This document shows positions 8,987 to 13,131 of a DNA stretch of 13,131 bases, piece by piece. The position numbers and the translations under genes are program-made. Origin of the DNA: a virus; UHGV virus genome UHGV-0327824; one strand, written 5' to 3'. The first letter of the stretch is position 1. Each line of letters begins with the position of its first letter. The notes beneath the pieces were generated by a model. It was not told the origin of the DNA, ran no database searches, and saw only the letters and a program-made list of their open reading frames with translations.

Positions 8987-10170
8987 CAGGCACCTCCCAG
9001 CACCGCAAATGCGGGACCAAAGAATTCATCAGTAAACGACTGGTAAAGCTCCATGTCTTCCAGCGGGGGAACTGGCGTATATTTGTAGCGAATACGCACA
9101 CGTCCCTGACGTAAACCCGTGGTGCTGTTATCCACCACGTCATACCAGCACTCCGCGCCAATCAGTTTCCCGGCAGTAACCAGTGAATCCAGTTTTGCCC
9201 TGATGGCACTGATAACATCCTTCACGTTCGCAGGCGTCAGTGGACTGTCGATGGTTTCAAACTGCGCTTCCGCAATTGAATCAGCCAGCACCTGTGCGGT
9301 TCGGGTATACACCTCAAAGATGTAGGCGTTCGTTTCCGGTGTGCGGTTGCCCCAGAAGCGGAACCCGTTACGACGAATAATGGTCGTGATTTCTTTGTTG
9401 TTAAGGCTGTTGGCATCGCTGTCTTCGGCCTGCAACGACCAGAACACATGCCGGGACATCCCCAGCACATTTTTAACCGGAACGTTGGACAGTGATTTGT
9501 GCCAGCCCTGCTCATGGTCAATGTACGCACGAAGGCCGCACGCATAAGCAGGCGCGGGGAACGTTTCGTTTTTGCCACTTTTCGGGTTGTAGGCGATGAA
9601 GTCCGGCCATAAGAGCATCACCTCACGTTCGTTGAATTTCTGGCGGTAGGTAATTGCCTCTGCCATCGTGTTACAGCCATGACATGAGGCATACACAAAC
9701 GCGCGCAGTTTACCCGCAATCACGCACAGGGATTTTGTCACCGCCTCCGTGTCCAGCTCCGGCGCGGCCAGAATACGCGGACGGTATCCGATGCTTTCAT
9801 CCTGCTCTGCAACAAGCAGCGCATACATCCCCGTATAGCTGCCGTCAGATTCAGAACCACCGATAACCAGTTGATCCTGCGTCTTTCCGTTTTCTTCTTT
9901 GTGTTCAGCCACGCGAACGACGATCACCTTTGTGCTCACCTGGTCTGCGATGGCCTTAAGCGCACGATAAAGCGTCCCCGTTGTCCCGCATTTTCCCAGC
10001 ACGTCATTGACGCGGGTCAGCAGTGTGGGCTTGTTCAGCGGGAACAGCTTCGCGTCCGCATCATCCGCCGTTGCCACGATACCGATAACGCTGGAATCAA
10101 CATCGTTAATCGCTGTTACCAGGTCGGTACTTTCCGTAACACGGGCACCATGAAAACGAGTTTCACTCAT
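8986..10170 (-). CDS. FI: Contractile tail sheath protein, P2 gpFI-like (394 aa)
   Basis: Size matches P2 FI (about 396 aa). First gene of the FI-FII-E-T block, coupled to FII. Confidence 0.88.
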   Translation of the reverse strand: MSETRFHGARVTESTDLVTAINDVDSSVIGIVATADDADAKLFPLNKPTLLTRVNDVLGKCGTTGTLYRALKAIADQVSTKVIVVRVAEHKEENGKTQDQLVIGGSESDGSYTGMYALLVAEQDESIGYRPRILAAPELDTEAVTKSLCVIAGKLRAFVYASCHGCNTMAEAITYRQKFNEREVMLLWPDFIAYNPKSGKNETFPAPAYACGLRAYIDHEQGWHKSLSNVPVKNVLGMSRHVFWSLQAEDSDANSLNNKEITTIIRRNGFRFWGNRTPETNAYIFEVYTRTAQVLADSIAEAQFETIDSPLTPANVKDVISAIRAKLDSLVTAGKLIGAECWYDVVDNSTTGLRQGRVRIRYKYTPVPPLEDMELYQSFTDEFFGPAFAVLGGA

Positions 10171-11477: not shown

Positions 11478-11738
11478 ATGTTCCGTTGTCCGCTTTGTGG
11501 CGCATCTGCCCGTATCCGCACCAGTCGTCCGGAAAATGATTCAAACACCGTGCGGCAAAAGTATTACCAGTGTAACAATCTGGAATGCGGCGTATGCTTC
11601 TCAACACTGGAAGCTTTCCATAAATTCACATCAAAACACGCCTCCGGCGTTCACTCTTCAGAAGGTATCCCGTGGCATGAGCTGCCAGCTTCACACAGGG
11701 GAAACAATCAGATGAGTTTGCCTTTATCTCAGAATTAA
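11478..11738 (+). CDS. ogr: Ogr/Delta-family zinc-finger late transcription activator (86 aa)
   Basis: N-terminus MFRCPLCGASARIRTSR...YYQCNNLECGVCF matches P2 Ogr (MFHCPLCQHAAHARTSR...YHQCQNVNCSATF) with the C-x2-C...C-x4-C zinc finger. RBS AAGGGAGG before the ATG. Confidence 0.88.
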   Translation: MFRCPLCGASARIRTSRPENDSNTVRQKYYQCNNLECGVCFSTLEAFHKFTSKHASGVHSSEGIPWHELPASHRGNNQMSLPLSQN

Positions 11739-11928
11739 CAGGCAGAATTGCCGGAGTAACAAAAAAGCGATAGATTACGCGCGGGTGCCTTTCGGCTGAT
11801 GGTCGGAGGGAATACCCGAAGGCCAGATGTGGAAAGGCCCCGGAAAACATTTCTGTTTAACCGAGGCCCTGACCATCTAACCTTAGCAAGTGATAGGTTA
11901 GCGCCTCCCTGAAAAAGGAGCAAGCGCT

Positions 11929-12069
11929 ATGTCGCAAAAATCGCTTATGGCCATCACGTTCTGCGTGACGGCAATCCTCATCATCTGGATGCTGCACGGT
12001 TCGCTGTGTGAAATACGGATGAGCTTCTGGGGAGCGGAGTTTGCGGCGTTCTTACAGTGTAAGCAGTAA
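11929..12069 (+). CDS. hok: Hok/Gef-family type I toxin (46 aa membrane peptide)
   Basis: MSQKSLMAITFCVTAILIIWMLHGSLCEIRMSFWGAEFAAFLQCKQ: hydrophobic TM segment, then SLCEIR and AAF as in Hok (..[27 protein letters not shown]). RBS AAGGAG 9 nt upstream. About 165 nt structured leader with a small upstream ORF (11799..11912); a stable hairpin follows the stop (12079..12100) and a terminator at 12159..12190. Below the ORF track's size cut-off. Confidence 0.7.
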   Translation: MSQKSLMAITFCVTAILIIWMLHGSLCEIRMSFWGAEFAAFLQCKQ

Positions 12070-12158
12070 GGAAACCGCGACGGGGGAGCAATCCCCCGTC
12101 AATCGGTTGCCAGGGTAAGGTCGATAAGGCACCCTATCTCACAGACATGAACAACAAA

Positions 12159-12190
12159 CCCGCAGCGTAAGAACTGCGGGTTTTCTTTTT
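12159..12190. terminator. Bidirectional intrinsic terminator between the hok-like locus (+) and the secreted-protein gene (-)
   Basis: Stem CCCGCAG / CTGCGGG with an 8 nt loop; TTTTCTTTTT on the plus strand and a T-rich tail (TTTGTTGTT) on the minus strand. Confidence 0.65.
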
Positions 12191-12258
12191 GGAACTATCA
12201 CTAGCTAGTGTACCGTTAACGGCACATAATGCTCGCACAACAAACCTGTTAAAAGAGA

Positions 12259-12540
12259 TTACTCAGCATTCTCCTGCTTCCATTGCCGGATCATTTCATC
12301 GGTAACATCACCCTCATAACATACCACGTCATACCCTCCATTACGGCTATATGCACTGCGTCCACCACATCTACTACCATTCCTTGCATGATTATAAGGA
12401 CACGCACAATTGCCTGGATAAGATTCAATGGATTCTTTAATTATTTCTTTTTTGATCTGAGCATCAGACTTTCCTGTTGCTGCATATCCGCTAAAAGATA
12501 CTAAACAAAGGCAGATTGCCATTAATAAACCACATCGCAT
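12259..12540 (-). CDS. Small secreted cysteine-containing protein of unknown function (93 aa precursor), AT-rich gene
   Basis: Start taken at the internal Met giving a signal peptide (MRCGLLMAICLCLVSFSGYAA | TGKSD). Mature part about 72 aa with four Cys (NCACPYN..RCGG..VCYEG). Markedly AT-rich against its surroundings. The ORF-track N-terminal extension to 12654 has no RBS. Confidence 0.55.
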   Translation of the reverse strand: MRCGLLMAICLCLVSFSGYAATGKSDAQIKKEIIKESIESYPGNCACPYNHARNGSRCGGRSAYSRNGGYDVVCYEGDVTDEMIRQWKQENAE

Positions 12541-12769
12541 ACCGATACACTCTATTACTAACCAATCATAGCCCACATCATAAAATCGAGATGAGGAGTA
12601 CAATACCTTTAACAAGAAGGTGTCATAACGATAATATGTCGTGCAATTCATCAAAAAAAAGATCTATATCAAAGAGATAGAACTCTTATCAGTGCTTCAG
12701 ACATCGGCATTCGAGGCAGCAGAAAAACAGTAAATCTGACGAATTTGCCTTTTCCCAAGATGTTGTCAG

Positions 12770-12926
12770 ATTAAAAAGATAGATTAGCGCAGGTACCTGT
12801 TGGTGGATTGCAGGAGGAAAAATGAAGTCGAGTGGAAAAATCCCAGAAAAATTTTTGTTTAACAGAGGTCCTGGCTCACTATGCGAAATACGGAGGAGCT
12901 GCAGAAGAATTCTGCTTCATCCTTAG
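12770..12926 (+). pseudogene. Deletion remnant of a second hok-type locus (leader fused to the hok C-terminal coding part)
   Basis: The leader is about 75-80% identical to the first locus's leader by eye (GATAGATTA.., ..TTTCTGTTTAACCGAGGCCCTG vs ..TTTTTGTTTAACAGAGGTCCTG), then jumps to sequence matching the hok 3' coding part (TCACTATGCGAAATACGGAGGAGCTG vs TCGCTGTGTGAAATACGGATGAGCTT). The TM-coding part is missing and the reading frame differs. Confidence 0.5.
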
Positions 12927-13012
12927 AGTTTAAACAGCACGTGCACTACCATTGTTTCTGCATATCGCCACACCATCGCCACTCAACCGCCATTGCACAA
13001 AATACAAATACG

Positions 13013-13034
13013 AAAAAACCACCCGAAGGTGGTT
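13013..13034 (-). terminator. Intrinsic terminator downstream of the tRNA gene (minus-strand transcript)
   Basis: Minus-strand reading: stem ACCACC / GGTGGT with loop TTCG, then TTTTTT; about 45 nt after the tRNA CCA end. Confidence 0.7.
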
Positions 13035-13078
13035 TCACGACACTGCTTATTGCTTTGATTTTATTCTTATCTTTCCCA

Positions 13079-13131
13079 TGGTACCCGGAGCGGGACTTGA
13101 ACCCGCACAGCGCGAACGCCGAGGGATTTTA
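13079..13131 (-). tRNA. leuZ: 3' portion of tRNA-Leu(UAA), leuZ-like; gene continues beyond the window end
   Basis: Reverse complement reads ..TAAAATCCCTCGGCGTTCGCGCTGTGCGGGTTCAAGTCCCGCTCCGGGTACCA: anticodon loop with UAA, a long class II variable arm, T-arm GGTTCAAGTCC, acceptor 3' strand and encoded CCA. Only about 53 nt are in the window. Confidence 0.85.

What the first reader, a model, noticed from the sequence alone, without database searches (positions are those of the whole stretch)
12259..12540. AT-rich gene for a small secreted cysteine-containing protein between the two hok-type loci
Composition differs sharply from the neighbouring DNA, indicating separate horizontal origin. The product has a signal peptide and a short mature domain with four cysteines (CxC..C..C). 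Small exported cysteine-stabilised proteins as prophage morons are often host-interaction or exclusion factors.
Basis: inference. Interest (0 to 1): 0.45.

Follow-up and report, generated by a model that had tools for sequence, protein, structure and literature searches.

The report
Small exported four-cysteine prophage cargo protein
This is a real, conserved gene carried as cargo at the end of a P2-like prophage. It encodes a small exported protein built from a widespread, unnamed four-cysteine domain whose function is unknown.

Summary
Window 12259-12540 (minus strand) is a 93-codon ATG ORF with 40.8% GC, against 54% for the prophage. RefSeq annotates it as hypothetical protein WP_001303543.1.

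It is a real gene. dN/dS is 0.12-0.19 among enterobacterial alleles. A profile search finds 2313 clusters (50% identity) of relatives. Thirteen residues are invariant, including the four mature-domain cysteines C45, C47, C58 and C74. 78 of 83 relatives have a signal-peptide-like N-terminus.

It lies inside the att-bounded P2-like prophage at tRNA-Leu leuZ (Sp13 type). The published sequence of the excised Sp13 attP junction matches the window up to 13012. Many related ogr-hok prophages lack the gene, so it is a moron.

Best reading: a Sec-exported, probably disulfide-stabilised binding module acting in the cell envelope; its ligand is unknown. The proposed exclusion or host-interaction role is untested. 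The second "hok locus" is only a 5' remnant.

The parts
12259..12540 (-). CDS for the 93-aa precursor (stop codon included). Identical to RefSeq WP_001303543.1, hypothetical protein.
   Evidence: dN/dS 0.12-0.19. PHROG 27544, E=7e-58.
12481..12540 (-). Codons 1-20: predicted Sec signal peptide (MRCGLLMAICLCLVSFSGYA). Inferred signal-peptidase I cut between A20 and A21. No lipobox.
   Evidence: Heuristic only. 78 of 83 relatives have the same hydrophobic N-terminus, variable in sequence. No SignalP was run.
12262..12480 (-). Mature 73-aa domain (about 8.1 kDa, pI 5.8): helix, cysteine-rich loops (YPGNCACPYN..NGSRCGGRSAYSR.GGY..C), helix.
   Evidence: Invariant residues S37 Y41 C45 C47 P48 G55 C58 G59 R61 S62 A63 G69 C74. 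AlphaFold2 pLDDT 83. No PDB relative.
12156..12183 (.). Bidirectional intrinsic-terminator-like hairpin between the convergent hok and small-protein genes.
   Evidence: sites on both strands, T-rich tails on each side.
12541..12700 (-). AT-rich (34% GC) upstream region. Weak Shine-Dalgarno AGAG at 12550-12553. Two TATGAT -10-like hexamers (12577-12582, 12565-12570) read by eye. No consensus sigma-70 promoter found.
   Evidence: The promoter is not established.
11929..12069 (+). Intact hok (Hok/Gef) CDS of the neighbouring hok/sok locus. Context only, not part of the gene.
   Evidence: annotation. sok-like Rfam match at 11783-11942 below the gathering score.
12766..12885 (+). Remnant of a second hok locus: 5' leader only, no hok CDS.
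   Evidence: alignment to 11740-12200.
13013..13131 (-). attR core of the prophage: 3'ETS-leuZ (13012-13078) plus the 3' part of tRNA-Leu leuZ (from 13079, cut by the window end). Phage DNA ends at 13012.
   Evidence: BLAST to K-12. K-12 annotation. Published Sp13 attL/attP/attR sequences. Primer matches.

Best explanation
The gene encodes a small exported protein. A 93-aa precursor is made from the ATG at 12540, exported by the Sec pathway, and probably cut after A20. This releases an 8-kDa periplasmic protein that is a single copy of an unnamed, widespread extracytoplasmic four-cysteine domain.

Shown: the ORF is real and under purifying selection. It belongs to a very large, tightly conserved family. 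It is cargo (a moron) in the variable segment between the ogr-hok module and attP of the leuZ-integrating P2-like prophage (Sp13 type).

Inferred: the four invariant cysteines form two disulfides that staple an otherwise irregular loop region between two helices. The domain then works as a ligand-binding module in the cell envelope.

The ligand is most likely a conserved envelope or extracellular polymer, with peptidoglycan favoured and nucleic acid second. The reason is that longer relatives fuse the same domain to SH3_3, PG_binding and TonB_C modules and to secreted SNase and HNH nucleases, or repeat it in tandem.

As a stand-alone protein in a lysogen it would coat or occupy that ligand in the periplasm. 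That would be a lysogenic-conversion function rather than a phage-propagation function.
For: Gene reality:
- The annotated CDS is identical in RefSeq.
- dN/dS is 0.12-0.19.
- 235 close hits were found, and 2313 clusters at E<=1e-3 with 1479 at E<=1e-10.
- 13 columns are invariant and 11 nearly so.

Export:
- Signal-peptide features occur in 78 of 83 relatives.
- All fusion partners are extracytoplasmic domains.

Prophage cargo:
- A 124-bp att duplication bounds int through the small ORF in strain 55989, and K-12 homology resumes at window 13010.
- The experimentally sequenced attP of excised Sp13 carries the window's 13008-13012 flank, and the authors' junction primers lie at 12857-12880 and 12990-13012.
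- The same end position is seen in Salmonella (68% identity) and another enterobacterial prophage (74%).
- The ogr-hok module occurs without the gene in many genomes.
- 616 of 5426 E. coli genomes carry the gene.

Binding-module reading:
- Of 49 longer relatives, 13 carry SH3_3, 7 SH3_4, 4 PG_binding_1, 2 PG_binding_2, 3 SNase (in both domain orders), 1 GmrSD_C/HNH and 1 TonB_C.
- Tandem repeats of the domain occur in P0121, P0124, P0138 and P0170.
- No partner gene is conserved across 80 genomes, so it acts alone.
Against: - No ligand, disulfide, export or expression has been measured.
- No dedicated signal-peptide predictor was run.
- No sigma-70-type promoter was found upstream.
- The model coordinates could not be inspected, so disulfide and metal-site geometry cannot be told apart.
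- The fusion partners are heterogeneous (cell-wall binders and nucleases), so the ligand guess is weak.
- The E. coli mature protein is acidic (pI 5.8) whereas the family domain is mostly basic (median pI 8.8). This sits poorly with nucleic-acid binding for this particular member.
- The extreme conservation of polar residues (S37, N50, N54, S56, R61, S62, S65, D78) would also fit a catalytic or metal site.
Confidence: 0.5

Rival explanations
1. Metal-binding module. The CxC...C...C set, possibly with N50, N54 and D78, coordinates Zn, Cu or Ca. The domain would supply or buffer metal in the periplasm, working like the Excalibur Ca-binding domain that accompanies secreted nucleases.
For: - Four invariant cysteines.
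- Fusion to metal-dependent nucleases SNase and GmrSD_C/HNH.
- P0184 pairs the domain with an Excalibur-like segment (read by eye).
- Weak cysteine-pattern hits to a zinc-finger model, RIM2a_ZnF, in 7 of 83 members at E about 0.01.
Against: - Exported cysteines in DsbA-containing periplasms are normally oxidised.
- No Fur or Zur boxes upstream of 78 homologues.
- No metal-homeostasis neighbours.
- No Excalibur HMM hit in any of 83 members, and the DxDxDGxxCE motif is absent.
Confidence: 0.2
2. Proteinaceous inhibitor or orphan immunity protein. The conserved loop plugs the active site of an enzyme that acts in the periplasm, such as a lysozyme or lytic transglycosylase, a T6SS or bacteriocin effector, or a nuclease. 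This would protect the lysogen.
For: - Small, exported, cysteine-stabilised and stand-alone.
- Mobile: on prophage ends, small ColE1-type plasmids and Tn3 cargo.
- Tandem multi-headed forms exist.
Against: - 50-60% identity is retained across classes and phyla. This is unlike arms-race immunity proteins.
- No adjacent toxin or effector gene.
- No hits to Ivy, MliC/PliC or other inhibitor families.
- Covalent fusion to nucleases is odd for an inhibitor.
Confidence: 0.12
3. Phage-specific superinfection-exclusion or host-interaction factor.
For: - Moron position at the prophage end, with its own terminator and foreign base composition.
- 189 IMG/VR viral-contig loci encode relatives.
Against: - Most family members are chromosomal or plasmid-borne, outside phages.
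- No hit in 50,697 deposited phage genomes.
- No PADLOC hit.
- In one large IMG/VR group the homologue lies next to a host HIUase/transthyretin-family gene near the contig end, so it is probably host flank.
Confidence: 0.08
4. The real product is the longer 131-aa ORF from TTG 12654, as many metagenome gene callers predict (130 aa). The hydrophobic stretch would then be internal and the protein not secreted. Alternatively the ORF is not functional at all.
For: - The open frame extends to 12654.
- Many database entries are 130 aa.
- No clear promoter and only a weak Shine-Dalgarno sequence.
Against: - The extension is not conserved. Diverged prophage alleles (P0013-P0015) and all other genera start at the signal peptide.
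- RefSeq uses the 93-aa start.
- Purifying selection and a huge family.
Confidence: 0.05

Closest known systems
PHROG 27544 (unknown function) and RefSeq WP_001303543.1 (hypothetical protein)
   Same: Same protein and family (E=7e-58 over residues 13-93; identical CDS).
   Different: Neither carries any functional description. The family is much wider than phages.
Excalibur extracellular Ca-binding domain (Pfam PF05901; Rigden, Jedrzejas and Galperin 2003, cited from my own knowledge)
   Same: A small extracytoplasmic accessory domain. It occurs both stand-alone behind a signal peptide and fused to SNase-type and DUF1524/GmrSD_C-type secreted nucleases. One relative (P0184) appears to carry both domains (by eye).
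   Different: No sequence relationship. No Excalibur HMM hit in 83 members. No DxDxDGxxCE motif. This domain has four invariant cysteines and a helix-loops-helix layout.
P2-family morons (P2 Z/fun, tin, old, orf30) and exported moron products such as lambda Bor (from my own knowledge)
   Same: AT-rich, independently terminated cargo in a variable slot of a P2-like genome. Dispensable for the phage and present only in a subset of related prophages.
   Different: Different slot (between ogr-hok and attP), different protein, no homology. No exclusion or conversion phenotype is known.
Sp13 (P2-like prophage of E. coli O157:H7 Sakai at leuZ; PMC2669165, PMC8190617)
   Same: Same prophage type, same att core and same right-end DNA. 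The authors' attP primers and attP flank match the window. O157:H7 genomes carry the identical protein.
   Different: The window's prophage (strain TW10598 type) has a different deletion pattern. The paper does not discuss this ORF; its marked moron was ECs2638.

Membership tests
Sec-exported protein with a type I signal peptide | Positively charged n-region, hydrophobic h-region of 8 or more residues, and small residues at -3/-1 of the cleavage site | tested here: met
   R2; a 21-residue run free of charged or strongly polar residues; G18 and A20 at -3/-1. 78 of 83 relatives pass. Heuristic only; SignalP was not available.
Sec-exported protein with a type I signal peptide | Demonstrated export and cleavage | not testable with these tools
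   Needs PhoA fusions, fractionation or N-terminal mass spectrometry.
Bacterial lipoprotein | Lipobox [LVI][ASTVI][GAS]C at the end of the signal peptide | tested here: not met
   C10 is preceded by M-A-I and C12 by I-C-L. Neither fits the lipobox (sequence).
Prophage moron | Lies within the boundaries of the mobile prophage genome | tested here: met
   The 124-bp att duplication brackets it. The published attP of excised Sp13 includes the flanking DNA up to window 13012.
Prophage moron | Absent from otherwise related phage genomes, and of foreign base composition | tested here: met
   The ogr-hok module (11478-12192) is found without the gene in many genomes. GC is 40.8% against 54%.
Prophage moron | Own promoter and terminator, and expressed from the repressed prophage | tested here: inconclusive
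   A terminator-like hairpin is present. No consensus promoter was found. Expression is not testable here.
Excalibur (PF05901) | Match to the family HMM and the DxDxDGxxCE Ca-binding loop | tested here: not met
   No hit in any of 83 members at E<=5. The motif is absent from the sequence.
Any Pfam, NCBIfam or PADLOC family | Score above the curated threshold | tested here: not met
   Pfam gives only Sclerostin at 18 bits, below the cutoff of 27. NCBIfam gives none. PADLOC gives none.
Known periplasmic lysozyme inhibitors (Ivy, MliC/PliC, PliG) | Sequence match to the family models, or fold similarity | tested here: not met
Cys4 zinc-ribbon or zinc-knuckle | Four cysteine sulfurs in tetrahedral geometry around a metal | not testable with these tools
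Only weak pattern hits to RIM2a_ZnF in 7 of 83 members.

The most novel reading that the evidence does not exclude
The protein is a stand-alone copy of an undescribed extracytoplasmic domain that has a fold of its own, with no detectable PDB or Pfam relative. The domain is a cell-wall or extracellular-polymer targeting module that bacteria reuse in secreted nucleases and in SH3 or PG-binding proteins. P2-like prophages, plasmids and transposons spread the single-domain form because occupying that ligand in the periplasm protects or remodels the envelope of the carrier cell.
Probability: 0.3. Interest if true: 0.55.

Novelty: new member of a known kind. Interest (0 to 1): 0.38.

Why it matters
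About one E. coli genome in nine carries this gene (616 of 5426 complete genomes), including O157:H7, 55989-type and ETEC strains. It sits on a prophage that has been shown to excise and be packaged (PMC2669165).

Its domain defines a family of more than 2,000 sequence clusters with no Pfam entry, no solved structure and no published function. The sequence is nevertheless very tightly conserved across Proteobacteria and beyond.

Defining its ligand would annotate thousands of "hypothetical" exported proteins. It would also explain an accessory module of secreted nucleases and cell-wall-associated proteins. For prophage biology, it would add a conversion gene to the little-studied ogr-attP slot of P2-like phages.

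Tried and rejected
- Sequence libraries: Pfam, NCBIfam, PHROGs and PADLOC scans gave only PHROG 27544 (unknown function) and weak partial hits. The Sclerostin, RIM2a_ZnF, norovirus protease and TGF-beta-mimic hits are sub-threshold cysteine or composition matches, and I rejected them.
- PDB by sequence: a single-sequence search found nothing at E below 0.29, and a profile search found nothing at all.
- Gene neighbourhoods: clustering neighbours in 80 genomes found no partner shared across genera, only lineage-specific synteny and the antisense shadow ORF. Plasmid and viral-contig neighbours are heterogeneous: Rop, mob, Tn3, Abi, Rha, Fic, KAP NTPase, HD-GAF.
- Regulatory motifs: there are no Fur or Zur boxes. 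A PhoP-box-like TGTTTAATCAAT occurs in the Kosakonia group, but the PhoP-box score over 81 upstream regions is no better than shuffles.
- Tandem integration: I looked for a third att copy that would indicate two elements side by side. None was found.
- Deposited phage genomes: tblastn and blastn found no match.
- Literature: searches by accession, by peptide motif, and for CP-933T/leuZ or Excalibur/SNase found nothing on this protein. Source databases name it only "hypothetical" or "uncharacterized".

Full report
**1. The observation**

The minus strand of window 12259-12540 holds a 93-codon ORF that starts with ATG at 12540 and ends with TAA. The window is 100% identical to E. coli TW10598. 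RefSeq annotates exactly this CDS there, and in strain 55989, as WP_001303543.1, hypothetical protein.

The gene is AT-rich. The ORF is 40.8% GC (GC3 28.7%) and its upstream 160 bp are 34.4%. The prophage body is 54.0% (profile).

The product begins MRCGLLMAICLCLVSFSGYA|ATGKSD. By a simple heuristic it has a charged n-region, a 21-residue run free of charged or strongly polar residues, and small residues at -3 and -1. The mature 73-residue part has exactly four cysteines: C45-x-C47, C58 and C74. There is no lipobox.

The frame stays open upstream to a TTG at 12654, giving 131 aa. Diverged alleles and all other genera begin at the signal peptide, so the 93-aa start is the supported one.

**2. 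It is a real gene**

Against three diverged enterobacterial alleles, dN/dS is 0.19 (80% identical protein) and 0.12 (74%). Synonymous sites are saturated against the Salmonella allele.

A word-indexed search found 235 relatives. All are 85-130 aa with a variable hydrophobic N-terminus and a near-identical core, SDAQIKxxIIxESIxSYPGNCPCPYNxARNGSRCGGRSAYSRxGGYxPxCYxxDVTxxMxxxYR. In an 83-sequence alignment, 13 columns are invariant, including all four cysteines, and 11 more are at least 90% conserved.

A profile search of 1.84 billion cluster representatives found 2313 matches at E<=1e-3 and 1479 at E<=1e-10. Genomic hits come from many genera:
- Enterobacterales, Acinetobacter, Pseudomonas, Xanthomonas and Aeromonas;
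- Sphingomonas, Caulobacter, Oxalobacter and Chromobacterium;
- Geomesophilobacter, and some cyanobacterial, melainabacterial and Omnitrophota MAGs.

The protein also matches 116 plasmid records: 35 Xanthomonas, 30 Pantoea, and small ColE1-type plasmids.

**3. Where it sits**

The window is the right part of a P2-like prophage. It runs through portal, terminase, capsid, lysis genes, truncated tail genes, a gpD-like gene and ogr at 11478-11738. After that come:
- an intact hok/sok locus (Hok/Gef CDS 11929-12069; sok-like Rfam match below threshold);
- a bidirectional terminator-like hairpin at 12156-12183;
- the small gene, on the opposite strand;
- a remnant of about 120 bp of a second hok leader with no hok CDS;
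- tRNA-Leu leuZ, cysT, glyW and pgsA.

In K-12, yecA is followed directly by 3'ETS-leuZ and leuZ. In strain 55989 a complete P2-like prophage lies between them. It is bracketed by a 124-bp duplication made of 3'ETS-leuZ plus 55 nt of leuZ. In the window, K-12 homology resumes at 13010, and there is no third att copy.

This is the Sp13 prophage type of O157:H7 Sakai, which sits at leuZ (PMC8190617). Asadulghani et al. (PMC2669165) showed that Sp13 excises, circularises, replicates and is packaged. Three details of their data match the window:
- Their sequenced attP junction has the flank "atacg" followed by the core aaaaaaccacccgaagg..., which is window 13008-13012 followed by 13013 onward.
- One of their junction primers matches window 12857-12880 with one mismatch.
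- The other matches 12990-13012 exactly.

The DNA that contains the small gene is therefore part of the mobile phage genome.

The gene also behaves as accessory cargo:
- It holds the same end position in Salmonella (tRNAs, gene, hok, hok, ogr, gpD; 68% identity) and in another enterobacterial prophage (74%).
- In O157:H7 an IS30 event removed ogr-hok but left the gene.
- The ogr-hok module (11478-12192) occurs in many further genomes without the gene. 1663 genomes match part of 11478-13009, but only 616 of 5426 carry the gene.

It therefore meets the positional, distributional and compositional criteria of a moron. Its promoter is not evident and its expression is unknown.

**4. What the protein is**

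No named family matches. Pfam gives only a sub-threshold Sclerostin hit. NCBIfam and PADLOC give nothing. PHROGs gives 27544, of unknown function. Scanning all 83 relatives at E<=5 shows no recurrent Pfam family. Neither sequence search of the PDB gave a credible match: the single-sequence search found nothing at E below 0.29, and the profile search found nothing at all.

**5. Clues to the mechanism**

There is no conserved neighbour. Clustering the ORFs around 80 homologues gave only lineage-specific synteny. Plasmid and viral-contig contexts are heterogeneous accessory DNA. The protein therefore works alone.

The domain is reused as a module. Among the 150 best representatives, 49 are at least 150 aa long. 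Pfam partners in those 49 are SH3_3 (13), SH3_4 (7), PG_binding_1 (4), PG_binding_2 (2), SNase (3, in both domain orders), GmrSD_C/HNH (1), TonB_C (1) and CBS (1). Four proteins carry two copies of the domain. By eye, one has an Excalibur-like segment and two have a YHYH-like motif. All interpretable partners are extracytoplasmic.

Tandem repetition, and attachment to both enzymes (nucleases) and binders (SH3, PG_binding), is typical of an accessory binding module. Cell-wall partners dominate, so peptidoglycan is my first guess for the ligand, followed by nucleic acid or a metal.

The invariant polar set (S37, Y41, Y49, N50, N54, S56, R61, S62, S65, D78) marks a specific site whose chemistry I cannot assign. 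I could not read the model coordinates, so two disulfides versus a Cys4 metal site remains open. Export into an oxidising periplasm favours disulfides.

Upstream regions of 78 homologues have no Fur or Zur box. A PhoP-box-like motif in the Kosakonia group is not significant overall.

**6. Verdict**

The "prophage moron" reading is well supported, including by published excision data. The "host-interaction or exclusion factor" idea is untested, and the broad non-phage distribution and modular reuse make it less likely.

I rate the anatomical statement at about 0.9: a real, exported, four-cysteine single-domain protein carried as P2-like prophage cargo. I rate the mechanistic statement at about 0.35: a disulfide-stabilised envelope-polymer-binding module. 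Taken together this gives an overall confidence of about 0.5.

It is a new, uncharacterised member of a known kind of thing: moron-encoded small exported proteins and accessory extracytoplasmic domains. Interest is moderate, mainly because a very large and tightly conserved domain family has no name, structure or function.

Noticed in passing
window 13012-13131; L084 4028-4151 and 39672-39795: The prophage att core is 124 bp and contains the whole 3'ETS-leuZ small RNA plus 55 nt of leuZ. Lysogens therefore carry a second copy of 3'ETS-leuZ next to yecA and int. Whether the extra copy is transcribed is unknown.
   Followed up: partly
window 12766-12885: The second "hok locus" is only a remnant of about 120 bp of a hok/sok 5' leader (about 75% identical to 11775-11900), with no hok CDS. 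Salmonella prophages at the same site carry two intact hok genes instead, both on the ogr side of the small gene (L090 6713-7351).
   Followed up: partly
window 9095-10170: In this strain the prophage is degraded. RefSeq marks a truncated tail gene abutting a truncated tail-sheath gene, so most tail and baseplate genes present in strain 55989 are deleted.
   Followed up: no
L172 5488-7031 (E. coli O157:H7 NE 1169-1): In O157:H7 an IS30 element replaces the gpD C-terminus, ogr and hok, but the small gene and the hok remnant are retained intact next to leuZ.
   Followed up: partly
window 11478-12192 versus 12193-13012: There is a module junction just after the hok terminator. Many E. coli genomes share the ogr-hok segment at 94-98% identity without the downstream 0.8 kb. 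That AT-rich 0.8 kb therefore appears specific to the prophage type that integrates at leuZ.
   Followed up: partly
L010, L056, L059, L062, L072 (Kosakonia and Enterobacter group), about 35-85 nt upstream of the homologue: These loci share a motif TGTTTAATCA(A/T)T that resembles a PhoP-box half-site pair. A PhoP-box score over 81 upstream regions was not above shuffled controls, so this may be shared ancestry only.
   Followed up: partly
window 12283-12504 (+): A 73-aa ORF lies antisense to the gene. The same shadow ORF recurs opposite homologues in 9 other loci. It is a by-product of the codon usage of the real gene, not a second gene.
   Followed up: yes
P0129, P0166, P0255, P0252, P0184, P0121, P0124, P0138, P0170 (relatives, not in the window): Multi-domain relatives exist: SNase fused on either side of the domain, one GmrSD_C/HNH nuclease fusion, one protein with an Excalibur-like segment, and proteins with two copies of the domain (one interleaved with Ig-like domains).
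   Followed up: partly
L088 3166-6294: An 80%-identical E. coli allele with a 4-residue IIKE duplication lies directly next to a copA-like gene (HMA/E1-E2 ATPase domains) at a contig end. This suggests a related prophage end at a different integration site.
   Followed up: no
window 12262-12480 (-): The mature E. coli protein is acidic (pI 5.8), whereas the domain is basic in most relatives (median pI 8.8; 65 of 83 are above 8).
   Followed up: no
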